In this document: positions 442-49,071 of the stretch, piece by piece | Layout: every line of letters starts with the position of its first letter | How positions within the stretch are numbered: the stretch's first letter is position 1 | Virus record (IMG/VR): IMGVR_UViG_2671180724_000008 | DNA: 64,000 nucleotides | Strand: one strand, 5' to 3' | From: a virus | Lineage: Duplodnaviria; Heunggongvirae; Uroviricota; Caudoviricetes | The notes under the pieces: generated by a model | Seen by the model: only the letters and a program-made list of their open reading frames with translations | Databases searched by the model: none | Told to the model about the DNA's origin: nothing | Position numbers and translations under genes: made by a program

Positions 442-1110
442 ATGACCAAGATCTTTGTGGTTGGCGGCACAAAGGGCGGGCCTGGCAAATCCACTGTTGC
501 CCAGCAAATTGCCGTTTGCCTGAAAGTCAAAAAGAAGAAGAAGGTTTATATCACTGATATAGATATTCAGCGCACGACAACAAGCTGGTGTGAAGACCGT
601 CGACAGAACGAAGACCTTGAGCTGATTCCTTTTGCCTACGTTCAGGATGACATCATTAAGCACCTAAAATCGCTTCAGGGTAGAGCTGAGTTTGTAGTGG
701 TAGATGCTGGTGGCTTTGACTCCGAAATTCAGCGACAAGCGATGCTGATGGCCGACGTTATCATTATCCCGCTGCGTCCTAAGCGTCGTGATTTGAAATC
801 TCTGCGTGACATCGATCCTATTATCGACAATGTTCGTAATGTAAACGATAAAGTGAAGGTCCGCGCGGTCATGAACCAGTGCCCGGCTTTGCCATCACAA
901 GTGTCTCGCATTCTGGCGGCTAAAGAGATTGTCGAGACGTTTGGCATCGAGTCTGCGCCAGTCAATCTATATAACCGCAACGTCTACGATGATGCGGAAG
1001 AGTCTGGTCGTTCTATCTTCGAAATGACCGGTAGCGAGCGCGACAAAAAGGCTGAAGCCGAGTTTGAAGAATTTGTAGATTATCTGTTGAGTCTGGAGGA
1101 AGAAGAATAA
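442..1110 (+). CDS. parA: ParA/MinD-family partition ATPase
   Basis: Deviant Walker A GGTKGGPGKST near N-terminus; about 220 aa; followed by overlapping small gene. Confidence 0.8.
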   Translation: MTKIFVVGGTKGGPGKSTVAQQIAVCLKVKKKKKVYITDIDIQRTTTSWCEDRRQNEDLELIPFAYVQDDIIKHLKSLQGRAEFVVVDAGGFDSEIQRQAMLMADVIIIPLRPKRRDLKSLRDIDPIIDNVRNVNDKVKVRAVMNQCPALPSQVSRILAAKEIVETFGIESAPVNLYNRNVYDDAEESGRSIFEMTGSERDKKAEAEFEEFVDYLLSLEEEE

Positions 1111-1469
1111 TGTCCATGAAAATGGGTGACCTAGCAAAGCGCAAAGAGCCTGATGCACCGGCTAAGAACACAACTCCTTTGCGCCAACCAGTCAGACCAC
1201 AGGGACGCCCGACTCGTGGCAAAGAGAAAATTAAGAGCCGCACGATGTCACTGGAGGACGAATACTTCGAACTGCTGGAGATGATGAAGTTCATCCCTCG
1301 TTTCGAGAAATTCACCCGTTCAGACGTGATTCGCGCAGCCATTTTCCATCTGGCAGAGAAGTCACCGCAGGAAATCGAGGACATCGTGAAACTTAACGAG
1401 GCGATCACAGCTGCCGATGTCACGATGCGTACCGATGAAATCAAACGAGAGTTGATGAAAAAAGGTTAA
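1110..1469 (+). CDS. Small basic protein, putative partition partner (ParB/ParG-like centromere-binding protein)
   Basis: Start overlaps parA stop (ATGA-type coupling); basic N-terminus; no motif recognised. Confidence 0.4.
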   Translation: MSMKMGDLAKRKEPDAPAKNTTPLRQPVRPQGRPTRGKEKIKSRTMSLEDEYFELLEMMKFIPRFEKFTRSDVIRAAIFHLAEKSPQEIEDIVKLNEAITAADVTMRTDEIKRELMKKG

Positions 1470-22612: not shown

Positions 22613-22704
22613 CCTTATCCCCTCATATCCCCTATCCTCGAACTCCTTGCCTTATCATCACAATGATATAATCAATATAAAATGATAAGTAAAAAGGAAA
22701 GCAC

Positions 22705-24276: not shown

Positions 24277-24292
24277 TCCCATTACGTGACCA

Positions 24293-24321
24293 GTAAGGCG
24301 TCTACGGACGCCTTACTTTTT
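24293..24321 (+). terminator. Rho-independent terminator (AAGGCGTC-tacg-GACGCCTT then TTTTT); member of AGGCGTCC hairpin family
   Basis: Hairpin plus T-run; lies inside the 5' end of track ORF 24286. Confidence 0.7.
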
Positions 24322-24336
24322 GGAAGGAATGTACCG

Positions 24337-25281: not shown

Positions 25282-25547
25282 TGCTTAAATCGATTATTAA
25301 TGGCGCTACCACCACCCCTACCCAACTGGCAAAAGAGATTGTCTTTTATCACGGTGAGTACGCTGTCATCGCACTGCCGTCAATTCTAGGCGCTGCCGGA
25401 ATGAAAGCGACAGATCGCGAGTTTGGATTAGTCAGCGAGCAGGTCGTAAAAATCCTCGCTCGTGTATCCAAACACCTTAACCACGATGCGATTGTATTCG
25501 ACGAATCCGCCGCTTTAAAACGAATCAACAAAACAAAAGGAGCCTGA
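25275..25547 (+). CDS. Hypothetical protein
   Basis: 90-aa ORF coupled to flanking genes. Confidence 0.4.
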   Translation: MLMLKSIINGATTTPTQLAKEIVFYHGEYAVIALPSILGAAGMKATDREFGLVSEQVVKILARVSKHLNHDAIVFDESAALKRINKTKGA

Positions 25548-25549
25548 TC

Positions 25550-26623
25550 ATGGCAAAAGGAAAATCCGCACTGGCACTTGCTCTGAAAAAGAAAATCGGT
25601 AGCAACGACGAAATTCAGAAAGTAACCCATTGGATTGACACAGGCTTTCCTCCGTTAAACAAAGCTATTTCAGGTCGTTACGATGGCGGTTTCCCATGTG
25701 GTCGTATCGTAGAAGTATTCGGGCCGCCAAGCGCGGGGAAAACCTTTTTGGCAACAGCAGCAATGATCTCCGCTCAGAAACAAGATGGTCTGGCGGTATT
25801 CCTCGATCATGAGAACAGTTTTGACGTTGGCCTGGCGGTAGCCAATGGCCTGAATGCAGATGAGGATGACGGCCAGTGGGTATACAAGCAGCCTGATACC
25901 TTCGAAGACTCTGTAGAGTTGATCGGCACAATACTTAAATTGGTACGTGATGAAGAGCTTATCCCTGAATCAGCACCTATCTGTATCGTGGCTGACTCAC
26001 TTGCGTCTATGGTTCCGAACTCCAAAGCCGAGAAGTTCGAAAAGATGGCTGAAGGCACTGCCAAAGACAAAGATCAGCTAAACATGAACGACAATACGGC
26101 GCTTGCTCGTGCGACGAGCGCGAACTTCCCCACTCTGGCTTTGTGGGCACGCAAATATAACGCCTGCATCATCTTCTTGAATCAGGTTCGCACAAAAATC
26201 GGTGTAATGTTTGGCGACCCTACGACGTCACCAGGCGGCGATTCACCGAAGTTTTACGCTTCTGTGCGCATCCGTCTCGGTGCATCGGTGATGAAGGATG
26301 GTAAAGAGAAGATCGGTCAGGACGTAGGCGCAGAGTGCATCAAAAACAAAGTTGCACCACCGTATGGCAAATGCACCTGGAAATTCTACTTCGATCCTAC
26401 TCGTGGCCTCGACGTTATCGAGTCGCTCGTCGAGTACATGCTGGAAGAAGGATACCTGCCAAAGAACGCCAGCGGGCGCGTAGAAATTGGTGACAAGAAA
26501 TACACCAAATCACAGATCGTCGAGATGTATCGGGAGAAGCCACTAGCTGAAATCATTGCGGCTTTACAGGCAATCGACGACCGGAGATCAAAAGACAATC
26601 CCACCGAGTCAGTAGAAGAGTAA
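25550..26623 (+). CDS. RecA/UvsX-family recombinase
   Basis: GRIVEVFGPPSAGKTFLA closely resembles the RecA Walker A region. Confidence 0.85.
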   Translation: MAKGKSALALALKKKIGSNDEIQKVTHWIDTGFPPLNKAISGRYDGGFPCGRIVEVFGPPSAGKTFLATAAMISAQKQDGLAVFLDHENSFDVGLAVANGLNADEDDGQWVYKQPDTFEDSVELIGTILKLVRDEELIPESAPICIVADSLASMVPNSKAEKFEKMAEGTAKDKDQLNMNDNTALARATSANFPTLALWARKYNACIIFLNQVRTKIGVMFGDPTTSPGGDSPKFYASVRIRLGASVMKDGKEKIGQDVGAECIKNKVAPPYGKCTWKFYFDPTRGLDVIESLVEYMLEEGYLPKNASGRVEIGDKKYTKSQIVEMYREKPLAEIIAALQAIDDRRSKDNPTESVEE

Positions 26624-26628
26624 ACACA

Positions 26629-26652
26629 AGGCGTCCACAGGACGCCTTTTTT
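26629..26652 (+). terminator. Rho-independent terminator (AGGCGTCC-acag-GACGCC then TTTTTT)
   Basis: Hairpin plus T-run. Confidence 0.75.
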
Positions 26653-26665
26653 ATCTCTTGAAAAT

Positions 26666-26686
26666 ATATAAGTACTTACTTATCAT
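26666..26686. promoter_or_regulatory. Copy of palindrome family ATAAGTACTTACTTATC
   Basis: Between terminator and next start. Confidence 0.4.
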
Positions 26687-26715
26687 TTTCACATAACAAC
26701 CACATAGGAAAACAC

Positions 26716-26916
26716 ATGATCAAAATCTATCTATTGGCAGTAGCCACAGGCCTTTCAGTGGCTCTCATCTACGGATTACTGGTTCCGTCGCTGATTTCTG
26801 CAAAGAGTGATTTGGCCGTCATGCTTGGAGTTCTCGTTGGTTTTGGTACTCCTGTAATCGGTCTTATTGCTGGTCGTAAGTTTATTAACTCATTAATCAA
26901 AGCAAAGGGGAAATAA
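26716..26916 (+). CDS. Small two-TM membrane protein (possible NfeD-like partner of the SPFH protein)
   Basis: 66 aa, two hydrophobic helices; stop 4 bp before SPFH gene. Confidence 0.5.
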   Translation: MIKIYLLAVATGLSVALIYGLLVPSLISAKSDLAVMLGVLVGFGTPVIGLIAGRKFINSLIKAKGK

Positions 26917-26919
26917 GTA

Positions 26920-27750
26920 ATGAAGAAACGTTTACCTGTAATTGCTCTGGCGGCTATTTGCACAATGGGTATTATTGGCTATGACCGCGTAGAACCTGGA
27001 TTTGTTGGCATCAAAGTAAACAAAGTAGGTGAAGATAAAGGGATTGGTGAAGTTGTTGGTGTTGGCCACCAATGGGTAGGCATTAACACTGAACTTTATG
27101 TATTCCCGACCTTCAAACAAATGAAGATCTACGACGAGCCGTTCACATTCCAGATGAGTGACGGTACTGCTATCGGTCACAAAATTGGCGTTACGTATCT
27201 GGTTAATCGTGACAAGGTAACGACAGTGTTCCAGACCTATCGCAAAGGCGTAGACGATATCACCGAATCAGATCTGCGTCAGAAAATTGCCGACTCTCTA
27301 AACCGTTTGGCCAGCCGTATGACCACTGACTCATTTATCGACGGTGGTAAGGCACAATTGCTGGACAACGCACTGAAAGATATTCAGAAAGAGATGTCTC
27401 CGGTTGGTATTGAGGTACTGAGCCTGTCATGGGTTGGAAAACCTGATTACCCAAAAACCGTCATTGAATCCATCAACGCCAAAGTAACGGCTAACCAGCG
27501 TACTCTGCAACGTCAGCAGGAAGTCGAACAACGTAAAGCTGAGGCGAATATGCTGCGTGAACAGGCTAATGGTGAAGCTGATGCTATCCGTGCTCGTGCG
27601 CAAGCAGAAGCAGACGCCATTCGTCTGCGCGGTGAAGCTCTGCGTCAAAACCCGAACGTTATGGAACTGGAAGCCATCAATAAATGGAATGGCCAGTTAC
27701 CGCAGTACATGACTCAAGGGGCTAACACTCCTTTCATTACCGTGAAATAA
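26920..27750 (+). CDS. SPFH/band-7 (prohibitin-like) membrane protein
   Basis: N-terminal TM helix, SPFH core and C-terminal Ala/Glu-rich coiled coil. Confidence 0.75.
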   Translation: MKKRLPVIALAAICTMGIIGYDRVEPGFVGIKVNKVGEDKGIGEVVGVGHQWVGINTELYVFPTFKQMKIYDEPFTFQMSDGTAIGHKIGVTYLVNRDKVTTVFQTYRKGVDDITESDLRQKIADSLNRLASRMTTDSFIDGGKAQLLDNALKDIQKEMSPVGIEVLSLSWVGKPDYPKTVIESINAKVTANQRTLQRQQEVEQRKAEANMLREQANGEADAIRARAQAEADAIRLRGEALRQNPNVMELEAINKWNGQLPQYMTQGANTPFITVK

Positions 27751-27767
27751 CTCTCTTTGAGAAGTTC

Positions 27768-27791
27768 AGGCGTCCAGTTGGACGCCGTTTT
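27768..27791 (+). terminator. Rho-independent terminator (AGGCGTCC-agtt-GGACGCC then GTTTT)
   Basis: Hairpin plus T-run. Confidence 0.7.
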
Positions 27792-27845
27792 ATTCTCGTT
27801 ATTATCACATACAAGAAAACAATTTGTTAAAAGGTTAAGTTAATT

Positions 27846-28670
27846 ATGCCCAACCACATTACAAACGAAATCCGAGTCATAGGTGGCACAAATAAACAAC
27901 GCTTAGATTTCATACGTGCCATAACTAACAAAAAAGGTCTAATTGACTTTAATACCATTTGCAGACGTCCGAAAAGTATAGAAATGGAAGAAAACAATCA
28001 TATCAGGCGCATGGCCTCTGCAATGGCGGGCGAAACAGTTTACGACTACATGTTCGGTGAATTAAAGACTCCAGAACAGCTCGAATTAGCTATGCGTGAA
28101 TCAGGAATGACACGCAAGGAAATTCGCAAAATCAAAGAGCAGGCTCTTATGCGGCTTGAGAATTATCGTCGCTATGGCTATTACTCATGGTTTGACTGGT
28201 CGCGAGCTAATTGGGGAACAAAATGGAATGCCTACAACATCGAAATGCCCGTAAAACGTATCCCTACACGTATTAAGTACGGCCATAATTTCCGCCATAC
28301 ACACGTTCGAGCATATGCAAAACGAATCTATAAAAAACGTCTTGCAAGACATGCCGCAACTGGTGGTGAGTTGGTGATTCGCTTTGAAACAGCCTGGTCT
28401 ATGCCAAAACCAATTTATCAAGCGATGGCTAGAAAGTTCCCGCACCTTGAGTTTGTAATACGTTATGCAGACGAAGACTTCGGCAATAACTGCGGATTCA
28501 TTTTACTTCGCAACGGCAAATGGGAATATGACTACATTGCACCGGCGAATAACGAACAATCGTCAGAAGAAAAAATCAAATGGCGCAAGTTCGCCTTTGA
28601 GTTATGTTGTCCTGGTATCACTCCACAAGAATACGGTCTAAATGAAGAATACGAATACGCCGGATATTAA
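27846..28670 (+). CDS. Hypothetical protein
   Basis: 274-aa ORF preceded by the AGAAAACAATTTGTT motif. Confidence 0.5.
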   Translation: MPNHITNEIRVIGGTNKQRLDFIRAITNKKGLIDFNTICRRPKSIEMEENNHIRRMASAMAGETVYDYMFGELKTPEQLELAMRESGMTRKEIRKIKEQALMRLENYRRYGYYSWFDWSRANWGTKWNAYNIEMPVKRIPTRIKYGHNFRHTHVRAYAKRIYKKRLARHAATGGELVIRFETAWSMPKPIYQAMARKFPHLEFVIRYADEDFGNNCGFILLRNGKWEYDYIAPANNEQSSEEKIKWRKFAFELCCPGITPQEYGLNEEYEYAGY

Positions 28671-28716
28671 AAAAATTGTCATTTAGCTTTACGCATGAAG
28701 CATAGAGGTTAATAAG

Positions 28717-29457
28717 ATGAAAAGAAAAATTGAAGAACCAAAAACGACCCTTAATAAACATGGGGAAAAAATTCAAACACATCCAGCGTTCGGTCTTGTG
28801 AAAACAAGCCGTGTTAGCACAACTGGCATTCGCCTATTTGATTCAGAACTGGAACATAGAGACTATATTGAAATAGGCGTTTACGAGGCGGAACTGTCCT
28901 TAGACAATGAACGAACCCGGCCACAAAGAAGTAGCAATAGACGGCCTTTAGTTGAAATCAGACTTAGTCAGGCACAATGGGCTGCTATGGTTAGCAGTTT
29001 TGGTGTGGGCGAAGGTGTGCCATGCACTATTTCATATAAAACCATTGGCGACTCAATTAGAGTTCATGATATTGCCGAGCAAAAAAGTATTCGGCAAAAA
29101 TTCAACGATCAAATAAAGGCAGCTACGAATAGTGAGATTGATCGACTTAATCAGCAAGTTTCAGAGCTAGGTGAGCTTGTGAAAAAAGGAAGAGCTGGAA
29201 AACGTGACCTTGAAGAACTATATAGAAAACTTGCATCTGCTGTAGCTAACCTTCCTGAAAATCTGTGCTTTGCTACCGAATTAATGCAGGAGCAAATGGA
29301 TGAAATTGTCTCATCTGGAAAGGCGGAGATTGAGGCGTATGTTGCGGGCACGGTTATGCGTAAAGGGTTAGCAGCATTAGGCACAGAATCATGCATTAAC
29401 GATGATCCTACTGTCTCTATCACCAAAATGGAAAGCGGTAAAGAATTACTGCCATAA
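28717..29457 (+). CDS. Hypothetical protein
   Basis: 246-aa ORF. Confidence 0.5.
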   Translation: MKRKIEEPKTTLNKHGEKIQTHPAFGLVKTSRVSTTGIRLFDSELEHRDYIEIGVYEAELSLDNERTRPQRSSNRRPLVEIRLSQAQWAAMVSSFGVGEGVPCTISYKTIGDSIRVHDIAEQKSIRQKFNDQIKAATNSEIDRLNQQVSELGELVKKGRAGKRDLEELYRKLASAVANLPENLCFATELMQEQMDEIVSSGKAEIEAYVAGTVMRKGLAALGTESCINDDPTVSITKMESGKELLP

Positions 29458-30725: not shown

Positions 30726-30905
30726 ATGAAGATTTTTATTGAATACTTGTTACTCATCGTGTCAATAGCTTTTGTCATCGACTGCATTTTCACTGGTGTC
30801 ATTCGTAAAGTCTTTTCCCCGGTGAACGACGTAGTAATAAACGCTTTGGCTATCGTGCTCGTATTTAATTCAGCATTTGATGTAATCAAAGAGGTGGCAG
30901 CATGA
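30726..30905 (+). CDS. Small membrane protein (59 aa; below track cutoff)
   Basis: Two hydrophobic segments; stop overlaps next ATG. Confidence 0.35.
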   Translation: MKIFIEYLLLIVSIAFVIDCIFTGVIRKVFSPVNDVVINALAIVLVFNSAFDVIKEVAA

Positions 30906-31237
30906 AGGCCATCCCATTCGCGCTGTTGTTCCTTTCTTCGATCGTTGTGGCCGACACCACTGTTTATCAGTGTGAAATGTCTGTAGCCGACGTTAAGAAT
31001 GGCGCTCTTACCGACGTCATAAAAGCACCATATGGAGCGATGGTCGTAGACAGCGGCGACCAGTTCTATGTTGTGCGTGACGATCGAGTATTGTCATCCC
31101 CATATCTCACAAACCGTAATGGCAAATTAACCGGCGTTGGAGAAGACCACTTCGTATACAACAAATACAAGGGCTTCTATGGCGTTCACGCTTCTCAGCA
31201 AAGCTACCTTTTCGATGACTGCAAGGAGGTTGGATAA
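30902..31237 (+). CDS. Secreted/periplasmic protein with N-terminal signal peptide
   Basis: N-terminus MKAIPFALLFLSSIVVADTT resembles a Sec signal peptide. Confidence 0.5.
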   Translation: MKAIPFALLFLSSIVVADTTVYQCEMSVADVKNGALTDVIKAPYGAMVVDSGDQFYVVRDDRVLSSPYLTNRNGKLTGVGEDHFVYNKYKGFYGVHASQQSYLFDDCKEVG

Positions 31238-31449
31238 TGGCATTAACACTGGCAGGTCTGGAAATCGAGAAAACAAGCGGCTACTGGCGTGCTAAGGGTT
31301 TCAAGCAGCCAGGCATTCTTGAGCGTCTGGAACGTGAAGATGGGTATATCGTCCACCAGCGGCGTGAATGGCGTATGTACGATCCAGAAACAGGAAAACT
31401 GACTACAAAAGCCGGAACACTCTGGGGTCTGTTGAAGAAAATACACTAA
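31237..31449 (+). CDS. Small hypothetical protein
   Basis: 70-aa ORF coupled to upstream gene. Confidence 0.45.
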   Translation: MALTLAGLEIEKTSGYWRAKGFKQPGILERLEREDGYIVHQRREWRMYDPETGKLTTKAGTLWGLLKKIH

Positions 31450-31496
31450 ATGCAAACTGACTGCGGCTCGTTCCGCAGTCATATTTCATAGTCGTC

Positions 31497-32029
31497 ACCG
31501 CTGACAGCATACACAATCAACTACCGCTGATAGCATATCGAGAGTCTATCTTACCGCTCACAGCATACTTTACTCGATTTTTTACCGCTGACAGCATACT
31601 TAAGACATTGCATGAATAATGTGTACCGGTATGGGTATAACCAGAACAAAATTACCGCTGGCAGCATACGAAGGTCTGACATATACCATTAATTACCGCT
31701 GATAGCATATCCAAACAAAAATTCCTCAATAAAACACCGCTGACAGCATACGTTCTATCAGGGAGCAGCAGGCAATAAATGCCTTTCACTACAAGCAATC
31801 AGCGCAATAGCAATAGAATGTTAGTGAGCGCAAACCTATATGGAATGCACTCTTCGAGGTTAGTAACCACTGGGGAGGTATGACAGAGCATTGAGTGGTG
31901 ATAGATGATTTACCGCTCACAGCATACGTTCATCTCACTATACCGCTGGTAGCATATCTTTAACCGTTCACAGCATACTTTTCAGAAAAATAGCCGCTGA
32001 TAGCATACATTTCACCGCTGACAGCATAT
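31497..32029. repeat. Iteron array downstream of repA (incA-like): about 12 copies of 17-bp TACCGCTGACAGCATAC in two clusters
   Basis: Direct imperfect repeats at roughly 31497, 31522, 31553, 31583, 31653, 31694, 31735, 31911, 31941, 31962, 31991, 32013; irregular spacing. Confidence 0.85.
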
Positions 32030-33123
32030 CAAAGCAGTTTGAGACTATTGGAAAGGATCTCAATCATCTTGATATTTTCAGGCGTCAAATTCTGCGAAAG
32101 TTCGGTTATCTTGTTGATAATGTTCTGTTTAGCATCAATTTCCCCGGCTTTCTCATCTGGTTTTTTGGGTTCGATGTCTTCAGGTTTTGGCGGTGCGACT
32201 TTAAGTTTTGGATTACGGCTGTGAATCTGGATATAGATCGACCGCCCTCGCTTAATCTCGCTGTATTCGAGATAGCCCAAATCTTGGAGAGCTTTTAAGC
32301 CGTTACGTATAGTCTGATTCTGCGAGCTGACATTCCTGCTACTCAAATTGAGTCGCGCACGCAATCGAGCAAGCGATACCGGCGCAGGCTTGGTTGGAAG
32401 ACTTTCGATGAAGGTGTACAGAGCCTGTGCTGTTTCTTTGCGTGGTAGCTTATTGATAACCTTTAACTGCAAAAGAACCTTATGGTCAAAGCGATATAGT
32501 TCGGCCAGCTTCGGTTCTGCATAGAACACCACCGTATCTTTCTGCTCGTTGTAGTCCACGCTATTGATGAGGTGCACCATCAGAAGCGAGATCTTGTTAG
32601 AGCCGTCGACGTTCTTTTCTTCATACGTTCTCTGGAAAGACAGAGTTGTACGCATGATCTTCAAAAGACTGTTTGTAAGCCGGTCGCGGAGTGTTTTGCG
32701 GATCTGTGACGATGGATAGCCACAAAACTTCGCAAATTTCGTGATGCTTAACTCGACACGACCGTTAGGTTCGCCGTATTCTGCCAGCGAACGCACAACG
32801 CCCACCCACGTTTTGAAATCATGATCCATGTCGAGACGAGGACCGGTTATCTTGATGTCGGAATAGCCTTCAGAACGGGCTACTTCGAGCTGAACAAGCT
32901 CCTTTGAAGCATCGATTTCATTTGGCTTGTTACGCTTGCTGTATTTTGTCCCCTTGAGCGTGGGCACGAACAACCCCAGCCGCATCAACGCAATTGGTTG
33001 GACTGTATTGTTGCTATTAGGGACAAGTTCCCCTGTGTACAATTCAAGGGAACCTTCTTCAAAGTTGTCGAGATTATCTTCTACTTCTTTGTTATTTTTA
33101 CCTTTTTTATTTTTTGTGGACAT
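32029..33123 (-). CDS. repA: Plasmid replication initiator RepA (P1/RepFIB-type)
   Basis: Iteron arrays on both sides; motifs NSNNTVQPIALMRLG, ITGPRLDMD, ALYTFIESLP, HSRNPKLK resemble P1 RepA as recalled; start placed at 33123 so the gene does not overlap upstream iterons. Confidence 0.85.
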   Translation of the reverse strand: MSTKNKKGKNNKEVEDNLDNFEEGSLELYTGELVPNSNNTVQPIALMRLGLFVPTLKGTKYSKRNKPNEIDASKELVQLEVARSEGYSDIKITGPRLDMDHDFKTWVGVVRSLAEYGEPNGRVELSITKFAKFCGYPSSQIRKTLRDRLTNSLLKIMRTTLSFQRTYEEKNVDGSNKISLLMVHLINSVDYNEQKDTVVFYAEPKLAELYRFDHKVLLQLKVINKLPRKETAQALYTFIESLPTKPAPVSLARLRARLNLSSRNVSSQNQTIRNGLKALQDLGYLEYSEIKRGRSIYIQIHSRNPKLKVAPPKPEDIEPKKPDEKAGEIDAKQNIINKITELSQNLTPENIKMIEILSNSLKLL

Positions 33124-33141
33124 GTGGACACCTTTGTCATT

Positions 33142-33245
33142 CAACCGCTGACAGCATACTTGATTTGCCGCTGGCAGCATACAAAAAACAGTTGGCAGCA
33201 TACGGCGAACCGTTGACAGACTATCAATTACCGCTGACAGCATAC
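33142..33245. repeat. Iteron array upstream of repA (origin/incC-like): about 5 copies
   Basis: Copies at about 33142, 33166, 33190, 33209, 33229, between repA start and GATC cluster. Confidence 0.8.
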
Positions 33246-33279
33246 ATGAACATGGCTTCAGACCAGTCGTGGCGCGGCT

Positions 33280-33361
33280 TACAGCGATCGGGGATCTTAT
33301 TTGATCTATACAAGGATCTATCTATGGATCTCTTTATTAGGATCTATCCTGTGGATATGTG
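33280..33361. promoter_or_regulatory. Putative plasmid origin core: six GATC sites in GGATCTA-like repeats plus DnaA-box-like TGTGGATAT
   Basis: GATC at 33286, 33293, 33303, 33315, 33327, 33341; DnaA-box-like 9-mer at 33351-33359; layout matches P1 oriR as recalled. Confidence 0.6.
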
Positions 33362-33444
33362 AATAATTAAAACAGGCATTTACTACCTTCGGCGCACCTG
33401 GTGGGTTATCGTTGCCTCGGCTAACAATCACAGAAAAATGACAT

Positions 33445-34089
33445 ATGGATCTAAAACGCACGCGCTGGGTTCGTCGTCTTGAAGACGGCTCATACACTAT
33501 CGAATCAAATTCCAACCTGAATAAGCAGAAGTTGCTTTGTGACATCTGCGGTATAGCGGCGAAGTGCCCGATCTACGAAACCAGAATAAAACTTGATAAG
33601 GCTGGTGTGAATTTTCATTTAAACAGTTGCATCAGGTACGTTCCATTGCTCGCATTTCGTAAACCGATCATCGGATTGGATGCCCCCTACTTCAACACAC
33701 TCCGTTCAGGTGTGACGTGGCGAGATCGTTTATCACCAGACAAGCTGATTTGCCTTGTATCCGCAGACACAGGGAAAATCATCCGTTTTGGGAAAGTAGA
33801 CAAGGTTTACTCAGGTCCAGTAGACGAAATGTTGCGGAAACACAGCCGGTTTAATCATCTCTGTATGGGTGGTGAGAAAATCGAAAAGGTGGAAGAAGTG
33901 ATCCGTAAATCCTACGGACACTTTCTGACCAAAGATAGCCTGCTCACCGCAATCTACATCAGACATGTAAAACGTGAGTTCGACCTCGAATACCACAGCG
34001 AAGAAGAGCTTAACCTTGTTGACCCACGTCCAAAAGCTGGCGTCATAAGCATAAACGCAGCGCGTAAAAAGCCCACTGACGCGCTGTAA
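33445..34089 (+). CDS. Hypothetical protein
   Basis: 214-aa ORF. Confidence 0.5.
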   Translation: MDLKRTRWVRRLEDGSYTIESNSNLNKQKLLCDICGIAAKCPIYETRIKLDKAGVNFHLNSCIRYVPLLAFRKPIIGLDAPYFNTLRSGVTWRDRLSPDKLICLVSADTGKIIRFGKVDKVYSGPVDEMLRKHSRFNHLCMGGEKIEKVEEVIRKSYGHFLTKDSLLTAIYIRHVKREFDLEYHSEEELNLVDPRPKAGVISINAARKKPTDAL

Positions 34090-34343
34090 CCCTCCAGATC
34101 GTATATTGGCGTAGATAGAATCTACGCCCCCTCAAAATAGCTCTCATAGCGTTCTACAGTGATCCTGTCTTATTTTTAGTCATACAGGCAAGCAAAGTTG
34201 CGCCACAACAAATAGGTATATACTTACTTATAAATTTTGTATATTAAGACGCTCGTTTCATTCCTAACATACCGTTATGCATAGTTGTTTACCTTCTCAT
34301 TGCTCTTAAAATTTGTATCAAAATAACCACAAAGGAAAAACAC

Positions 34344-35429
34344 ATGACTTTGCCATACGGCGTCATTTCTGACTGCCACTACCACAAATGGGATGCGTTC
34401 TCCACGACGAACGCTGAGGGGCTTAACTCCAGACTTGAAATACAGTTGGAAGCAACGAAAGAAGCAGCCATCGCCATGAAGAAGGCCGGTTGTAAGTACA
34501 TGTTGGTTGCCGGTGATACATTTCACGTCCGAGGAACTGTGTCCCCTTCTGTTTTGCATTACGTAACTGAAACGTACAAGTGGATTATCAACGAGCTTGA
34601 TCTGACAGTAGTAATGCTGGCCGGTAATCACGATCTTGAAACCAACGATTCAGTATATAGCGCCAACGCAGCAGCATCGCTGAGTTCTATCGGCGTGGTA
34701 ATCGTATGTGGCAAGCGCCCACACTCAATAAAAATTGGTGATGTGACTGTCCACCTGATTAGCTGGCGTAACAATCATGCGGAGCTTATCAGCGATCTGA
34801 AAGCATTACGTAAGAGCGTAGAAGGTGATAATCATGACGTTGTTATCCATACATCCATTAACAAAGCCATTCCAACAATGCCTGACGTCGGTATCGATGC
34901 GCAGGAGTTAAAGGATATCGGCTTTCGTCTCGTGCTTAGTGGGCATTACCACAACCACAAAGAGGTCATTCCTGGTGTTATCAGTGTCGGTGCGCTGACC
35001 CATCAAAATTGGGGAGATGTTGGATCTCTGGCTGGTTACATGATCGTAAACCCGGACGGCAGTTTCAGTCACTACGAAACCAGTGCGCCTAAATTCATTA
35101 ACCTGGAAGATTATGTTGCCGATGACCAAATTCGCGGCAACTACGTGCGTTTCCGCGCCGTAATTGAGAACGATGAAGAAGGCATTAAGTACCAGAATAT
35201 CCTCAAAACAATGGGCGCAAAAGGTGTCGTGTGCAACTTCATCCGTAAGTCATCAATGATGGAAGGGACAGCAAGCACAACGGAAACCAGCAAAATCGAT
35301 AGCTTGGGAGAGTCGGTATCTGCTTATTGCAAGATTGTCCACGATACTGACGGCGGATTTGATCTGAGCAAGTTGGATATTTTGTGTCAGGAAATCCTCA
35401 CCGAAGCGGAGAGTTCGGAGGCTGTGTGA
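34344..35429 (+). CDS. SbcD/Mre11-family nuclease (calcineurin-like phosphoesterase)
   Basis: Metallophosphatase motifs SDCHYH, VAGDTFH, LAGNHD, SGHYH. Confidence 0.8.
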   Translation: MTLPYGVISDCHYHKWDAFSTTNAEGLNSRLEIQLEATKEAAIAMKKAGCKYMLVAGDTFHVRGTVSPSVLHYVTETYKWIINELDLTVVMLAGNHDLETNDSVYSANAAASLSSIGVVIVCGKRPHSIKIGDVTVHLISWRNNHAELISDLKALRKSVEGDNHDVVIHTSINKAIPTMPDVGIDAQELKDIGFRLVLSGHYHNHKEVIPGVISVGALTHQNWGDVGSLAGYMIVNPDGSFSHYETSAPKFINLEDYVADDQIRGNYVRFRAVIENDEEGIKYQNILKTMGAKGVVCNFIRKSSMMEGTASTTETSKIDSLGESVSAYCKIVHDTDGGFDLSKLDILCQEILTEAESSEAV

Positions 35430-35658
35430 GGCAAAGTCGTTATGGGAGCTTTCGAGACTTTGCCATCACGATGAAAAGACTTGAACGAGGCCAGACGGTG
35501 ATGTTTCACAAGCCCTACCCGCCACAAGGAAATCCCGTAGCGTTTTATCTTGGAAGGTTAACAAGAAAAGGCGTATTGAGACGCAGATCCTTCCCGGCGC
35601 ATACGGAGTTCAGATTGAAAGAAGGTCAAAAGCTAACACACGGTATCAAAGGTGTTAT

Positions 35659-37575
35659 ATGAAGTTTTTAAAGCTCCAGGTTGAGAATTTTATGGCTATC
35701 GCCAGCGCGGAGGTCGAGTTAGATCAGCGTGGTTTAGTGCTAATTCAGGGCGTTAATAGTGATGATAGTTCCGCATCAAGTAATGGCTCTGGAAAGTCAA
35801 CTCTAATGAATAGCCTGATGTGGTGTCTTTATGGCGAAACAGCTCATGGTGTGAAGGGTGACGATGTGTTGTCTACCGACCATGAAAAGAACTGTCGTGT
35901 TGCAGTAACCATCGAGGATGAAGGCAAGAGATATGCGATCATTCGTCACCGTAAACACAAAGAGTTCAAAAATCGTCTTATCGTTCGTGGTGAAGATGGC
36001 GATATGACGAAAGGCAAAGATGCGCTGACGCAGGAGTTCGTCGAGCGTCTGATCGGTGCATCTAAAGAGGTTTTCATGGCTTCCATCTATGCGAGCCAAG
36101 AAGCTATGCCAGATTTACCTGGAATGTCCGACAAAAACCTCAAAACCATCGTAGAAGAAGCCGCTGGCGTTGACAGACTGACACGCGCCTACGCTATTGC
36201 TCGTGAGCGAGCTAATGCAGCTGCCGCACGTATGGATGTGGTTAAAACCAAATTGGAGTCGACAATCTCGACCATTGAGGCAACACAGTCAGAAATTGAG
36301 TCCGCGAAAGCCTCCTCTGAATCATGGGAACAAGAGCGTTCTAAACGTTATGACGATGCCTTGGCTGGGCTGGCAAGTGCCGAAGTTGAGTTAACGGAAG
36401 TTGAACTTGAGATCCGCACTCTTCCCGAACAGATCCGTGATACCGAGAAGGCAATCGAAAGTGAGCGCAAAAAGTTAGCCTCAAAAGAAGAACATGACGC
36501 CAAGTTGCTCAAAGTGCGTGGTGCGATAACTGATATTCGGGCAAGCATCAAAGCTACAGAAAATAGTCAGGCTGATGCAATGAGCCGCGCGCGCAATTTT
36601 AAGACTAAAGCAGAAGAGGTTGGTACTAAAGTGGGATCGCCATGCCCTACTTGTGGCAAAGCCTACTGCGAAGAAGATCTATCAACGGTGAAGGAGAATT
36701 TCATTGAACAAGCACGTCAGGAAATTGGTCAGGCGAAGACACTTGCAGAGGCAATGGCTAAACACAAAACGAATCTTGAGAAAGCGTTAAGCATTGAGTC
36801 TGCCCTTGTTAAAACGACACCTGATGTAACGGCTATCATTGCACGGATTGAAGAGCTTACTAAACAACTCTCATCTTTGCGTCATCGTGAGAAGGAGGTT
36901 GTTGCTATTGAGTCTCTTGTTACTCGTGCTCGTGCAGAGGTAGATCGTATCTCAAAAGAGGTTAATCCGTTTATTGCACTTATCGCCAGACACGAAGATA
37001 ACCTGGCATCCAGTAAGTCTACCTTCAAGTCCTTAAAAGATGAGTTGAAGGCTATTCAGGAACAAACGTTGCTATTGGAAAAAGCTCGTCAGGTCTACTC
37101 TCCTGCCGGGGTGCGTTCTCATATTTTGACGTCTGTTACGCCTTTCCTGAATACACGTACAGCTGAGTATCTCAATACGTTGTCTGACGGGAATATTACT
37201 GCTGAGTGGTCGACGATGGATGTCACTAAAAAAGGTGAGTATCGCGACAAATTCAACATTAGTGTGCAGAAGAAAGGTTCAAGTAAGTCGTTCCAGACCC
37301 TCTCTGGTGGTGAGAAGCGGAAGGTTCGCATTGCGTGTTCTTTGGCATTGCAGGATCTGGTTAGTAACCGGGCGAGTAAAAACATCGATTTGTTTATCGG
37401 CGACGAAATTGACGATGCACTCGATACAGCCGGTCTTGAACGCCTCATGGGTATTCTGGAGTCCAAAGCTCGCGAGCGAGGTACTGTGCTGATTATCTCC
37501 CATAAAGAGATGAAGTCATGGTTCCGGGAAACTATTACGCTGGAAGTTAAAGAGGGGCGCAGCTATGTCGTTTAA
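35659..37575 (+). CDS. SbcC/Rad50-family ATPase
   Basis: N-terminal Walker A GSGKST, long coiled-coil middle with CxxC hook-like motif, C-terminal signature LSGGEKRK and Walker B. Confidence 0.8.
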   Translation: MKFLKLQVENFMAIASAEVELDQRGLVLIQGVNSDDSSASSNGSGKSTLMNSLMWCLYGETAHGVKGDDVLSTDHEKNCRVAVTIEDEGKRYAIIRHRKHKEFKNRLIVRGEDGDMTKGKDALTQEFVERLIGASKEVFMASIYASQEAMPDLPGMSDKNLKTIVEEAAGVDRLTRAYAIARERANAAAARMDVVKTKLESTISTIEATQSEIESAKASSESWEQERSKRYDDALAGLASAEVELTEVELEIRTLPEQIRDTEKAIESERKKLASKEEHDAKLLKVRGAITDIRASIKATENSQADAMSRARNFKTKAEEVGTKVGSPCPTCGKAYCEEDLSTVKENFIEQARQEIGQAKTLAEAMAKHKTNLEKALSIESALVKTTPDVTAIIARIEELTKQLSSLRHREKEVVAIESLVTRARAEVDRISKEVNPFIALIARHEDNLASSKSTFKSLKDELKAIQEQTLLLEKARQVYSPAGVRSHILTSVTPFLNTRTAEYLNTLSDGNITAEWSTMDVTKKGEYRDKFNISVQKKGSSKSFQTLSGGEKRKVRIACSLALQDLVSNRASKNIDLFIGDEIDDALDTAGLERLMGILESKARERGTVLIISHKEMKSWFRETITLEVKEGRSYVV

Positions 37576-38308
37576 ATTAAGCCGCTCGCAGTTTTTGCAG
37601 GTATTTGCAGTGATGCAGTCGATAAAACTGATCAATGGGCATACTTCCAATAGTGCGGCTCCACGTATTCTGTGGGGCAGCAATAATATTGACAAAGCAC
37701 AATTCGCCCCGTTGCTTGGTCTAATATCCGAGACACCATTGATGCAAAGTTTGGAATCACTACCGTCTGGATGTATTGCGCCGATCTTGATTAATCCTTT
37801 TGTTGAGGGGGGATATCTTCCCAACGTCGGACCTGGGTTTATCGCAACCCATGAAACTGAAGATCTTAACATTAATAGCGAAGGGTTCTTTGGGGCAATG
37901 GATGCGCATCTCTGTATGGCTTTCACGAACCTTATTCGACTTGCCAATAAGCGGGCGGATAGTTTGGCATCGCCAGGTGATGCTTTTACTGGTTTCCTTA
38001 TCCAAAGGAGGGATAAAAAGTACAGTGCGGACAAACTACAGTTTGTTGGTAAGTATGGAGAAATGGTAGAAATCGAACTTCAGCTCCCTCATGTTTTAGC
38101 AAACGATAGTGCAGACAGTCGGAGGCTGTTGGGCATCATGCGTCATTTCATAGCAAGTGGCGTTAAACATGCCGTAGATAAACGTGTCACGCAGGAAAAT
38201 GAGTATTCAGACTTTGCAAGCTATCCCCAACCAACGTTGCAAACGGCAATAGTAGCCAATTCGTTGGAGGCGAGATTATTGGAAAACCCTATATGGGGAA
38301 CATGGTAA
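37565..38308 (+). CDS. Hypothetical protein
   Basis: 247-aa ORF overlapping SbcC-like stop. Confidence 0.5.
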   Translation: MSFKLSRSQFLQVFAVMQSIKLINGHTSNSAAPRILWGSNNIDKAQFAPLLGLISETPLMQSLESLPSGCIAPILINPFVEGGYLPNVGPGFIATHETEDLNINSEGFFGAMDAHLCMAFTNLIRLANKRADSLASPGDAFTGFLIQRRDKKYSADKLQFVGKYGEMVEIELQLPHVLANDSADSRRLLGIMRHFIASGVKHAVDKRVTQENEYSDFASYPQPTLQTAIVANSLEARLLENPIWGTW

Positions 38309-38317
38309 GGAGACTAT

Positions 38318-38887
38318 ATGAGTAAAAAAATCAGCGTAGTTGGTGTTGATCCCTCAATGAGCAACTTTGGGCTTGCTGTGGGCACTTTAGACCTTGAAAC
38401 GGACGAACTTGAGATTCACGGCCTTACTCTTGTTGAGACTAAAGCGGGGAGTAACAAAAAGACAGTTCGTGTGAACAGTGACGATCTGCGCCGTGCCAGT
38501 GAAATATGGCGTGTTGCGAAGCCAATCATTGATAAGGCAAATATGGTTTTTTGTGAGCTACCGGTTGGGAGCCAAAACTCTCGTTCGCAGACGTCTTACG
38601 GTATTTGTATCGGTGTACTTGCGTGTGTGGATAAGCCATTGATCCAGGTCACTCCAAACGAAATTAAGCATTTTGTCGGCAATAAACTTACTACATCGAA
38701 AGAAGAGATTATCCAGTGGGCTACGAAAAAACACCCTAAAGCACCGTGGCTGCGTCGTAAGCAATCTGGACAGGATGTTCTCGTGAACAAAAACGAACAT
38801 TTGGCTGATGCGGTGGCTGCCATCCATACCGGTATGCAAACGGATCAGTTCCGCCAGGTGCGCGATGTTCTTAAGTCTCTCATTTGA
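38318..38887 (+). CDS. RuvC-family Holliday-junction resolvase
   Basis: N-terminal VVGVDPS and C-terminal EHLADAVAAIHTG resemble RuvC catalytic regions. Confidence 0.6.
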   Translation: MSKKISVVGVDPSMSNFGLAVGTLDLETDELEIHGLTLVETKAGSNKKTVRVNSDDLRRASEIWRVAKPIIDKANMVFCELPVGSQNSRSQTSYGICIGVLACVDKPLIQVTPNEIKHFVGNKLTTSKEEIIQWATKKHPKAPWLRRKQSGQDVLVNKNEHLADAVAAIHTGMQTDQFRQVRDVLKSLI

Positions 38888-38893
38888 TTTCAT

Positions 38894-38917
38894 TGATAGG
38901 TAAGTGCTTATCTATTA
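38894..38917. promoter_or_regulatory. Copy of palindrome family TGATAGGTAAGTGCTTATCTA
   Basis: Intergenic upstream of nrdA. Confidence 0.4.
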
Positions 38918-38960
38918 ACATGGGCCACTATATTTAGTGGCCCTCTTTATTTGGTGATAC

Positions 38961-41276: not shown

Positions 41277-41281
41277 CATAT

Positions 41282-41308
41282 GGTGGGGGGTATCCCCACC
41301 TTCTCTTT
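41282..41308 (+). terminator. Rho-independent terminator (GGTGGGG-ggtat-CCCCACC then T-rich)
   Basis: Hairpin after nrdA stop. Confidence 0.65.
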
Positions 41309-41381
41309 GATTTGTAAGCCTTGTTTAAACAAATAAGATAACAACTTGTTTAAACACATCAAAAAGCAAAAGGAAAAACAC

Positions 41382-48477: not shown

Positions 48478-49071
48478 ATGATTGCAGCCGAAAAAATCAA
48501 ACAGCGAAAGCGCGACAACTCTCTTCGTGACCTCTGGAGAACACCTGATTGGCTGTTTTCTGCCATTCAACGTTATCTTGGAGTGACATTTGATGTTGAC
48601 GTTGCCTGCAACAAGGACAATGCAAAGCTGCCTAATTTCATAGGCATTGAGCGTGATGCTTTGAAATCTGAATGGGGACAGCCAGGTACAATTGCCTTCC
48701 TCAATCCACCCTACTCCAAAATCTCCCCCTGGATTGATGCGGCTATACGTGAGCAGGCTCGCGGAGTTACAACAGTGATGCTAATTCCTCAATCCCTCGA
48801 TACAAAGTGGTATGAGCGTGCAACAGAGTATGCGAATGAGACGATTATTCTGTCTGGTGGCCGCGTAGCGTTTGTCGAGCCTGACGTCAATTTGGGTCAG
48901 GTAGAAGTAAACATCAACCCCGGTGGCAGTATGCTCGTTGTTTTTCGAGGATTCTGTCAGGACGCTGGGCACTCTATAAGCAAGATCCCTTTGGACGTCA
49001 TGAAAAGTCTGGGAGGGTATGATCCTGCGAATGTGGTCAGGAAAAAAAGACCATCAAAGAAGGCTGCTTAG
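48478..49071 (+). CDS. Phage-type DNA N6-adenine methyltransferase (Dam family)
   Basis: WRTPDWLF, FDVDVA and NPPYS motifs. Confidence 0.8.
   Translation: MIAAEKIKQRKRDNSLRDLWRTPDWLFSAIQRYLGVTFDVDVACNKDNAKLPNFIGIERDALKSEWGQPGTIAFLNPPYSKISPWIDAAIREQARGVTTVMLIPQSLDTKWYERATEYANETIILSGGRVAFVEPDVNLGQVEVNINPGGSMLVVFRGFCQDAGHSISKIPLDVMKSLGGYDPANVVRKKRPSKKAA

What the first reader, a model, noticed from the sequence alone, without database searches (positions are those of the whole stretch)
31497..33361. Complete P1-like replicon: iteron arrays on both sides of repA plus GATC-rich, DnaA-box-containing origin
About 12 copies of a 17-bp iteron lie downstream of repA and about 5 upstream, followed by six GATC sites in 60 bp and a DnaA-box-like 9-mer. 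This mirrors the oriR-repA-incA layout of P1/RepFIB replicons, with the window's Dam-type methyltransferases potentially controlling origin methylation. It is a classical system, but it underpins the plasmid-prophage interpretation.
Basis: partly seen in the sequence, partly recalled or inferred. Interest (0 to 1): 0.5.

Follow-up and report, generated by a model that had tools for sequence, protein, structure and literature searches.

The report
P1/RepFIB-type plasmid replicon of phage-plasmid
This stretch is the ordinary, already catalogued plasmid-maintenance replicon (initiator gene flanked by its own binding-site repeats, next to a host-factor origin module) that lets an SSU5-like E. coli phage persist as a low-copy plasmid, built on the same plan as the classic phage P1 and IncFIB replicons.

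Summary
There are 12 iterons (core ACCGCTGACAGCATAC) at 31497-32029 downstream of repA (minus strand, 33123..32029, 364 aa) and 5 at 33144-33245 upstream. Six GATC sites follow within 59 bp, then two tandem DnaA boxes at 33350-33366. All of this is far above chance.

RepA is 46% identical to P1 RepA over the whole P1 protein (E 4e-86) and about 50% identical to RepFIB initiators. It has the Rep3 WH1 domain. The DnaA-box/GATC module aligns at nucleotide level with P1 oriR, SSU5 and RepFIB.

The window is an SSU5-like E. coli phage-plasmid. The same replicon (95% identity or more) occurs in 115 of 5,426 complete E. coli genomes, always on plasmids.

Differences from P1:
- a different iteron sequence, so it is not IncY;
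- 12 control iterons, all direct, in two blocks (P1 has 9 in mixed orientation);
- a 55-aa RepA C-terminal tail;
- no adjacent parAB.

RepA plus iterons form a diverged specificity cassette inside a conserved SSU5 backbone that retains the host-factor part of the origin.

Verdict: real, correctly interpreted, classical and already known. Interest is low.

The parts
31458..31481 (.). Terminator-like hairpin (9-bp stem, 6 G-C pairs) directly after the 70-aa ORF 31237-31449. It marks the outer edge of the replicon and the point where nucleotide homology to the SSU5 backbone stops (31447).
31497..31751 (-). Distal block of 7 control iterons (starts 31497, 31523, 31553, 31584, 31654, 31695, 31736), in the same orientation as the origin iterons. 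Three of them are deleted in phage PhiR41_1, so they are at least partly dispensable.
31752..31911 (.). 160-bp iteron-free spacer between the two control blocks. No Rfam match and no convincing ORF. Found only together with this replicon (126 plasmid records). Function unknown.
31912..32030 (-). Proximal block of 5 control iterons (starts 31912, 31942, 31963, 31993, 32014). The last one overlaps the repA stop codon TGA (32031..32029), exactly as incA copy 9 abuts the end of repA in P1. It is the incA equivalent.
32029..33123 (-). repA, 364 aa. Rep3 WH1 domain at aa 118-239 and a weak WH2 match at aa 251-296. Residues 32-309 align with P1 RepA 20-284. Residues 310-364 are a lineage-specific tail (a Pro/Lys/Glu-rich linker followed by predicted helices).
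33115..33131 (-). Two tandem TGTCCACA motifs (GTGTCCACA, ATGTCCACA) overlapping the repA start codon. Each is 2 mismatches from the DnaA-box consensus. They sit where P1 has its repA-proximal DnaA box. This is an inferred weak site, not shown.
   Evidence: sequence; P1 comparison
33144..33245 (-). Five origin iterons (the incC equivalent) at 23/21/21/21-bp spacing, which puts them on the same helical face. By register with P1 PrepA they contain a weak promoter-like TTGTAT-17 nt-AAGTAT (33184..33156). The promoter is inferred, because the consensus scan found none.
33249..33285 (.). G+C-rich spacer (59% G+C) between the iterons and the GATC module. It aligns with the corresponding P1 oriR spacer.
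33286..33344 (.). Six GATC (Dam) sites. Five lie in AGATC(C/A) heptamer-like repeats and one in CGATCG. The stretch is A+T-rich (64%). It is homologous to the five-GATC region of P1 oriR and is the presumed unwinding and SeqA-sequestration region.
33350..33366 (-). Two tandem DnaA boxes (ATATCCACA, TTATTCACA) sharing one base. They are homologous to the tandem boxes at the outer end of P1 oriR.
48478..49071 (+). Dam-family N6-adenine DNA methyltransferase (PF05869, E 5e-38), 15 kb away. A link to the origin is possible but untested.
442..1469 (+). ParA-like ATPase (442-1110) followed by a 117-aa ORF (1116-1469). This is the probable partition pair, located 30 kb from the replicon rather than next to the control iterons as in P1.

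Best explanation
This is the theta-type, iteron-controlled plasmid-maintenance replicon of an SSU5-like Escherichia phage-plasmid. It belongs to the P1 RepA / RepFIB family.

Inferred mechanism, by homology with P1:
- RepA monomers, released from dimers by DnaK/DnaJ/GrpE, bind the five helically phased iterons at 33144-33245.
- Host DnaA binds the tandem boxes at 33350-33366, and possibly weak boxes at the repA start.
[quoted passage not shown] After firing it is hemimethylated and sequestered by SeqA, which limits re-initiation.
- The repA promoter lies within the origin iterons, so RepA represses its own synthesis.
- The 12 extra iterons downstream of repA titrate RepA and pair with origin iterons (handcuffing), holding the copy number low.

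Shown here: the sequence anatomy, the homology of RepA and of the origin module, and exclusively plasmid-borne occurrence in nature.

Inferred: every biochemical step, the promoter position, and the dependence on Dam, DnaA and chaperones.
For: - Iteron statistics: 17 hits against 0.39 expected. The array layout is given.
- RepA is 46% identical to P1 RepA across residues 20-284 of 286, E 4e-86.
- RepA is 49% identical to SSU5 RepA, 85% to Klebsiella pJN2-26 RepA, and about 50% to RepFIB initiators in thousands of plasmids.
- Pfam Rep3_N is found in all four aligned RepA proteins, and Rep3_C in three of four. PHROG 775 matches at E 5e-133.
- The feature order matches the experimentally annotated P1 oriR/repA/incA record, including the last control iteron touching the repA stop codon.
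- There is nucleotide-level alignment of DnaA boxes, GATC heptamers and G+C-rich spacer with P1, SSU5 and RepFIB.
- The GATC cluster is unique in the window.
- 120 of 5,426 complete E. coli genomes carry the replicon (115 with at least 80% coverage): 185 places on plasmids and 0 on chromosomes.
- Carrier plasmids are typed with this single replicon, rep_cluster_488, and range from 62 to 152 kb.
- The nearly identical PhiR41_1 is deposited as a phage of E. coli K-12.
Against: - No experiment on this replicon was found or could be run.
- The consensus promoter scan found no sigma-70 promoter in the origin iterons on the repA strand, so autorepression rests on register with P1 only.
- The left DnaA boxes each carry one mismatch, and the repA-proximal ones carry two.
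- Iteron orientation in the control array differs from P1, SSU5 and RepFIB.
- The RepA C-terminal tail has no counterpart in P1, so parts of the control logic could differ.
- The WH2 domain match in this protein is below threshold (E 0.13).
- The single-sequence structure model was unusable.
Confidence: 0.92

Rival explanations
1. The distal block of seven repeats (31497-31751), or the whole downstream array, is not a copy-control locus. It would instead be a centromere or other cis site, for example one bound by the partner of the ParA-like ATPase, that merely resembles the origin repeats.
For: - The distal block is separated from the proximal one by a 160-bp spacer and has irregular spacing of 26-70 bp.
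- It is not alignable with the Klebsiella relative beyond the repeats themselves.
- No parS-like site was identified for the ParA-like gene at 442-1110.
Against: - The repeats have the same 16-bp core and the same orientation as the five origin iterons.
- P1, SSU5, RepFIB and the Klebsiella relative all carry RepA-specific iterons at this position.
- PhiR41_1 lacks three of the seven yet is a viable phage-plasmid record.
- The par-like genes lie 30 kb away.
Confidence: 0.05
2. The region is the lytic (phage-mode) origin, or a decayed, non-functional remnant. Plasmid maintenance would then depend on another locus, such as the element's own DnaE or primase genes.
For: The element encodes its own DNA polymerase III alpha subunit and nucleotide-metabolism genes, so a second replication mode certainly exists.
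Against: - The homology is to P1 oriR/repA, the plasmid origin, not to oriL/repL.
- The repA ORF is intact. It is at least 99% conserved in 120 plasmid records, and identical in one.
- All 17 iterons and all GATC sites are intact.
- 62-64-kb E. albertii derivatives keep this replicon as their only typed one.
- No other initiator is annotated in pSTEC409_1 between positions 1 and 100,000.
Confidence: 0.03

Closest known systems
Phage P1 plasmid replicon (oriR - repA - incA; IncY)
   Same: - RepA is 46% identical over the full length.
- The order is the same: tandem DnaA boxes, GATC heptamers (5 in P1, 6 here), G+C-rich spacer, five iterons at about 21-bp phasing, repA, and a control array whose last iteron touches the stop codon.
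- The DnaA/GATC/spacer module is about 77-83% identical at nucleotide level.
   Different: - The iteron sequence differs: GATGTGTGCTGGAGGGAAA in P1 and GTATGCTGTCAGCGGTA here.
- There are 12 control iterons, all direct, in two blocks. P1 has 9, of which 3 are direct and 6 inverted.
- RepA is 78 aa longer, mainly through a 55-aa C-terminal tail.
- parAB-parS is not adjacent.
- The phage backbone is unrelated (SSU5-like siphovirus, not Punavirus).
RepFIB replicons of IncF plasmids (example: p50EVA-1, NZ_CP138413)
   Same: - RepA is about 50% identical.
- It has a DnaA box, five GATC sites, iterons, repA and downstream iterons.
- PGAP and other annotators name this window's protein 'RepB family' or 'RepFIB replication protein A'.
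- Typing tools file SSU5-type rep genes under IncFIB (bioRxiv 10.1101/2025.09.12.675607).
   Different: - The iteron sequence differs (ATAAACTGTAGTCAGT).
- The RepFIB control array has mixed orientation.
- RepFIB RepA lacks the C-terminal tail, because its hits cover only query residues 24-309.
- RepFIB is resident in conjugative plasmids rather than a phage.
Klebsiella SSU5-like phage-plasmids (pJN2-26; probably also pKPHS1-type, which I did not compare directly)
   Same: - It has the same iteron core (ACCGCTGACAGCATAC).
- It has 5 origin iterons.
- RepA is 85% identical, including the C-terminal tail.
- All its iterons are direct.
- Cross-incompatibility with the window's element is predicted but not tested.
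   Different: It has 8 control iterons (4+4) instead of 12 (7+5). The spacer and the distal block are not alignable. It is found in a different host genus.
Salmonella phage SSU5 (backbone prototype)
   Same: - The flanking genes are 86-94% identical at protein level and syntenic.
- The GATC/DnaA module is shared at about 77% nucleotide identity.
- The overall replicon plan is the same.
   Different: - RepA is only 49% identical.
- The iterons differ (CCACTATAGAGAG core).
- The SSU5 origin module is tandemly duplicated.
- Nucleotide homology breaks at window position 31447 and resumes at 33285. RepA plus iterons therefore behave as a diverged specificity cassette inside a shared backbone. This is consistent with the published 48% RepA identity between pECOH89 and pLF82, which otherwise share 71 CDS at almost 100% identity (PMC3999498).

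Membership tests
P1 RepA / RepFIB iteron replicon family | Initiator homologous to P1 RepA over its full length | tested here: met
   BLASTP gives 46% identity over residues 20-284 of 286, E 4e-86. About 50% identity to RepFIB initiators.
P1 RepA / RepFIB iteron replicon family | Rep3-type initiator with two winged-helix domains (WH1 + WH2) | tested here: inconclusive
   WH1 (PF01051) scores 37.5 bits against a cutoff of 22.4. WH2 (PF21205) sits at the expected position, aa 251-296, but is below threshold at E 0.13. It reaches E 4e-4 in a family member. No PDB sequence hit. The AF2 single-sequence model was unusable.
P1 RepA / RepFIB iteron replicon family | About five directly repeated iterons at two-helical-turn spacing immediately upstream of repA | tested here: met
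   Five copies at 33144-33245 with spacing 23, 21, 21, 21.
P1 RepA / RepFIB iteron replicon family | Cluster of Dam (GATC) sites plus DnaA box(es) on the far side of the origin iterons | tested here: met
   Six GATC sites in 59 bp and two tandem boxes. They align with P1, SSU5 and RepFIB.
P1 RepA / RepFIB iteron replicon family | Second iteron array downstream of repA (incA-type control locus) | tested here: met
   Twelve copies at 31497-32029, the last overlapping the stop codon as in P1. Number and orientation differ from P1.
P1 RepA / RepFIB iteron replicon family | repA promoter embedded in origin iterons (autorepression) | tested here: inconclusive
   The consensus scan found no promoter on the repA strand. 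Register with the annotated P1 PrepA gives a weak TTGTAT-17-AAGTAT.
P1 RepA / RepFIB iteron replicon family | Autonomous replication that depends on RepA, DnaA, Dam and DnaK/DnaJ/GrpE | not testable with these tools
   Only indirect evidence is available. The replicon is found in 120 complete E. coli genomes, always on plasmids, and it is the only typed replicon of its carriers.
IncY (P1/P7 incompatibility group) | Iterons of P1 sequence, recognised by P1 RepA | tested here: not met
   The window core is GTATGCTGTCAGCGGT and the P1 core is ATGTGTGCTGGAGGGA. No P1-type iteron lies in the region. The window is therefore not filed as IncY.
P1-type maintenance region (rep + par as one block) | parA-parB-parS immediately beyond incA | tested here: not met
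   Beyond the control iterons lie small conserved + strand ORFs of unknown function. The ParA-like gene is at 442-1110.
SSU5-like phage-plasmids | Syntenic SSU5 backbone around the replicon | tested here: met
   Flanking ORFs are 86% and 94% identical to SSU5_070 and SSU5_068. The window is 98-99% identical at nucleotide level to PhiR41_1 and pSTEC409_1, which carry terminase, portal, capsid and tail genes.

The most novel reading that the evidence does not exclude
The lineage-specific features may not be neutral variation. They are the 55-aa RepA C-terminal tail (shared only with SSU5-type phage-plasmids), the all-direct two-block array of 12 control iterons, and the inverted iteron-like 19-mer inside repA (32768-32786). 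They could form an added control layer that couples plasmid-mode initiation to the phage's own replisome or to the lysis-lysogeny switch. For example, the tail could recruit phage-encoded replication proteins, or the distal block could set a phage-specific copy number. A related reading is that incompatibility is escaped by exchanging a RepA-plus-iteron cassette at breakpoints inside the origin, while the host-factor module stays with the backbone.
Probability: 0.07. Interest if true: 0.4.

Novelty: already known. Interest (0 to 1): 0.15.

Why it matters
The replicon fixes the nature of the window. It is a plasmid prophage of the SSU5 group, not an integrated phage or a conventional plasmid.

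It also yields testable predictions:
- low copy number;
- dependence on Dam and DnaA;
- incompatibility with Klebsiella relatives (pJN2-26 and its kin) that share the iteron;
- compatibility with P1 and with SSU5/pLF82-type elements.

SSU5-like phage-plasmids carry resistance genes such as CTX-M-15 on pECOH89 (PMC3999498). A 2026 preprint links a phage-plasmid RepA and copy number to heteroresistance. I saw only its title, the opening lines of its abstract and term counts and could not open the text. An accurate map of the iterons and origin is therefore practically useful for typing and for interpreting copy-up mutations. Conceptually it adds nothing new to iteron biology.

Tried and rejected
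1. An Rfam scan of 31200-33600 at E up to 1 gave no match. There is therefore no evidence for a regulatory RNA in the 160-bp spacer.
2. The spacer 31745-31915 was searched against plasmids. It occurs only with this replicon and has no other homologue. The idea that it is a remnant of another element was dropped.
3. The inverted iteron-like 19-mer inside repA (18/19 match) is reached in only 1 of 200 synonymous-codon shuffles. However, the Klebsiella orthologue has four synonymous differences there and no hit. I treat it as probably fortuitous and unproven.
4. PDB sequence searches with RepA and with a 4-sequence profile gave no meaningful hit.
5. Single-sequence AlphaFold2 of RepA gave mean pLDDT 39.6, which is unusable, so no fold search was run. 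I ran no further search on building an alignment, because the P1 homology already settles the family.
6. NCBIfam gave no hit for RepA.
7. The consensus promoter scan found nothing in the origin iterons on the repA strand.
8. Attempts to fetch pECOH89 (HG530657) and p09EL50 (CP003298) failed. A guessed accession, NC_024956, returned an unrelated IncF plasmid. Assignment to the 'H89' rather than the 'pLF82' RepA type therefore rests on indirect evidence: phage Cyrano (OV696614), which I take from memory to be the pLF82 element, matches only the GATC/DnaA module.
9. The 2026 heteroresistance preprint and the P1 genome paper (under a PMC id recalled from memory) could not be opened.
10. The PGAP start at 33243 (404 aa) was rejected. 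Its first 40 residues are translated iterons, homology to P1, SSU5 and Klebsiella begins after M41, and a good Shine-Dalgarno sequence precedes ATG 33123.
Full report
**Observation**

Reading 30800-34200 and listing ORFs shows one long minus-strand ORF flanked by copies of one short repeat.

A mismatch-tolerant search for ACCGCTGACAGCATAC finds 17 hits in the 64-kb window against 0.39 expected, and no shuffle reaches 17. Sixteen hits lie between 31497 and 33245, all on the + strand. Allowing four mismatches adds the copy at 33209.

- 12 copies downstream of the gene: seven at 31497-31751, a 160-bp gap, then five at 31912-32029.
- 5 copies upstream, starting at 33144, 33167, 33188, 33209 and 33230, spaced 23, 21, 21 and 21 bp.

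Information content defines a 16-17-bp core, RTATGCTRYSAGCGGT(A) in the sense of the gene.

Six GATC sites start at 33286-33341. This is the only spot in the window with more than three GATC in 70 bp, and only 1 of 2000 random placements of the window's 272 GATC sites reaches six.

Two tandem DnaA boxes share one base on the minus strand. They are TTATTCACA (33366..33358) and ATATCCACA (33358..33350), each one mismatch from TTATCCACA.

**The gene**

The mechanical ORF starts at 33243 (404 aa), and PGAP uses that start in RefSeq records. Its first 40 residues are translated iterons (MLSAV.., MLPTV.., MLPAA..).

Homology to P1, SSU5 and Klebsiella RepA begins after the internal Met. AAGGTG lies 5 nt before ATG 33123. 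The PhiR41_1 record uses the 364-aa form. I take repA as 33123..32029.

The family evidence is as follows:
- Pfam Rep3_N (WH1) at 37.5 bits against a cutoff of 22.4.
- A sub-threshold Rep3_C (WH2) match at the expected place. It is significant in a sister sequence.
- PHROG 775 at E 5e-133.
- BLASTP against annotated P1 RepA gives 46% identity over residues 20-284 of 286, E 4e-86.
- Against SSU5 RepA, 49% identity.
- Against Klebsiella pJN2-26 RepA, 85% identity.
- tblastn against PLSDB shows at least 99% identity in 120 plasmids, 80-90% in 332 (the rows listed in that band are Klebsiella), and about 50% in thousands of IncFIB plasmids, some annotated 'RepFIB replication protein A'.

RepA is a P1/RepFIB-type initiator.

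**Anatomy compared with P1, RepFIB and SSU5**

The curated P1 record lists, in repA sense:
- a DnaA site;
- five Dam sites;
- five incC iterons that contain PrepA;
- repA;
- nine incA iterons, the last ending on the last base of repA;
- parA and parB.

The window has the same order, including an iteron that overlaps the TGA stop codon (32031..32029).

A three-way alignment shows that the DnaA boxes, the GATC heptamers and the G+C-rich spacer are homologous base for base with P1 and SSU5. The iterons are not alignable. blastn places the P1 match at 33263-33377.

A RepFIB plasmid, p50EVA-1, shows the same plan: TTATCCACA, five GATC sites, iterons, repA, then downstream iterons.

The differences are these:
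1. The iteron sequence differs from P1 (GATGTGTGCTGGAGGGAAA), from SSU5 and from RepFIB. The element is therefore not IncY.
2. All 17 iterons here are direct, as in the Klebsiella relative. P1 has three direct and six inverted copies in incA, and SSU5 and RepFIB also mix orientations.
3. There are 12 control copies in two blocks, against 9 in P1. PhiR41_1 has 9 because of an 87-bp deletion of three distal copies, and Klebsiella has 4+4.
4. RepA carries a 55-aa C-terminal tail that P1 and RepFIB lack. SSU5 and Klebsiella have it in diverged form.
5. No par operon follows the control array. A ParA-like ATPase with a 117-aa partner lies at 442-1469.

**What the window is**

The region is 98% identical to Escherichia phage PhiR41_1 and 99% identical to many circular E. 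coli and E. albertii plasmids of 62-152 kb. These are typed by MOB-suite with a single replicon, rep_cluster_488.

The best-annotated carrier, pSTEC409_1, has terminase, portal, capsid, tape-measure and tail genes. It also has dnaE, nrdAB, thyA and dfrA, which is the SSU5 gene set.

Among 5,426 complete E. coli genomes, 120 carry the replicon (115 with at least 80% coverage). It occurs at 185 places, all on plasmids and none on chromosomes. This is strong natural evidence that the replicon supports extrachromosomal maintenance.

**Cassette structure**

Nucleotide homology to SSU5 runs up to 31447, the end of the 70-aa ORF. It resumes at 33285, the first GATC. The flanking proteins are 94% and 86% identical to their SSU5 counterparts, against 49% for RepA.

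RepA, both iteron arrays and the G+C-rich spacer therefore form a diverged specificity cassette. The host-factor half of the origin travels with the backbone.

This fits the published remark that pECOH89 and pLF82 share 71 CDS at almost 100% identity while their RepA proteins are only 48% identical (PMC3999498). It also fits the note that typing tools file SSU5 rep genes under IncFIB (bioRxiv 10.1101/2025.09.12.675607).

**Mechanism**

The mechanism is inferred from established knowledge of P1 and other iteron plasmids. Sources are the P1 record notes, the general iteron review PMC6090056, and my own knowledge of the P1 literature on Dam dependence, SeqA binding and handcuffing.

1. Chaperone-activated RepA monomers fill the five phased origin iterons.
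2. DnaA binds the tandem boxes. It possibly also binds two weak TGTCCACA motifs over the repA start, where P1 has a proximal box.
3. The 64% A+T stretch of six GATC sites melts. It must be fully methylated to fire.
4. Once hemimethylated after firing, it is held by SeqA.
5. RepA bound to the origin iterons occludes its own promoter.
6. The 12 downstream iterons titrate RepA and handcuff origins, which keeps the copy number low.

None of these steps was shown here. The promoter is the weakest link. The scan found none, and only register with P1 PrepA suggests TTGTAT-17-AAGTAT.

**The methyltransferase remark**

The window does encode a PF05869 Dam-family enzyme (48478-49071, E 5e-38). It also encodes a 561-aa DUF4942/PHROG 6263 methyltransferase at 53026-54711. 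Their specificity cannot be read from sequence here, and host Dam is sufficient in E. coli. The suggested link to the origin is plausible but untested.

**Rivals**

- A centromere role for the distal block is unlikely. The repeats are identical in core and orientation to the origin iterons, and three of them are dispensable in PhiR41_1.
- A lytic-origin reading is contradicted by homology to oriR/repA rather than to oriL/repL.
- A dead-remnant reading is contradicted by conservation in plasmid-borne copies.

**Dead ends**

These are listed in full under Tried and rejected. In brief: Rfam, PDB sequence searches, single-sequence AlphaFold2 (pLDDT 39.6), the spacer homology search, the internal inverted iteron-like site (statistically unusual but not conserved), and several papers and accessions that could not be opened.

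**Verdict**

It is a member of the P1/RepFIB iteron-replicon family with its own iteron specificity, resident in an SSU5-type phage-plasmid. It is present in more than a hundred public records, so it is classical and already known. The lineage-specific details are modest leads: the all-direct 7+5 control array, the RepA tail, and the cassette boundaries inside the origin.

Noticed in passing
L003 (SSU5, JQ965645) 3238-3981: SSU5 has a tandemly duplicated origin upstream of repA. A repA-proximal set of 4 iterons (3322-3397) is followed by a GATC/DnaA module in which several GATC sites have decayed to GACC or GAAC. A second set of about 5 iterons (3682-3780) is followed by an intact GATC/DnaA module.
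   Followed up: partly
L008 (Klebsiella phage pJN2-26, MZ779062) 2684-2703 and 3954-3973: The record annotates 'attL' and 'attR' phage attachment sites that are simply two RepA iterons on either side of repA. This is an annotation artefact of a direct-repeat finder.
   Followed up: yes
window 33124-33243: PGAP/RefSeq records start RepA 40 codons too early (404 aa), reading through all five origin iterons. The start supported by homology and a Shine-Dalgarno sequence is ATG 33123 (364 aa). RefSeq and PHROG 775 also label P1-type RepA 'replication helicase', which is a misnomer.
   Followed up: yes
window 32768-32786 versus 33193-33211: An inverted 19-mer inside repA (codons for SLAEYGEP) matches origin iteron 3 plus its flank at 18 of 19 positions. 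Only 1 of 200 synonymous-codon shuffles does as well. The Klebsiella orthologue has four synonymous changes there, so a function is doubtful.
   Followed up: partly
window 32029-32194 (RepA aa 310-364): The C-terminal tail is a Pro/Lys/Glu-rich linker followed by two predicted helices ending in ...IEILSNSLKLL. It is absent from P1 and RepFIB RepA, conserved in Klebsiella and diverged in SSU5. Function unknown.
   Followed up: partly
window 33445-34089 (+): A 214-aa ORF is transcribed divergently from repA and starts 79 bp beyond the DnaA boxes. It matches PHROG 2105 (unknown function), has no Pfam domain, contains several Cys residues, and is 86% identical to SSU5_070. It always sits next to the origin in SSU5, Klebsiella and E. 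coli relatives.
   Followed up: partly
window 442-1469 (+) and 62093-63193 (-): A small ParA-like ATPase (222 aa, PHROG 164) with a 117-aa partner (PHROG 5111) is the probable partition system. A second, unrelated ParA-fold protein of the Mrp/NUBPL (ApbC) type lies at 62093-63193 and is an auxiliary metabolic gene rather than a partition gene.
   Followed up: partly
window 15441-29457 and 34344-47326: By collinearity with pSTEC409_1, the replicon is embedded in a large phage replication and nucleotide-metabolism module. The module includes CobT-like, AAA ATPase, DnaE, 5'-3' exonuclease, RecA-like, SbcCD-like exonuclease/ATPase, NrdAB, ThyA, DHFR and RNase H genes. The lytic replication machinery is therefore separate from the RepA system.
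   Followed up: no
window 1522-2289 (-): A 255-aa ORF with a LEM-3-like GIY-YIG nuclease domain (PF22945, E 6e-7) lies on the strand opposite its neighbours.
   Followed up: no
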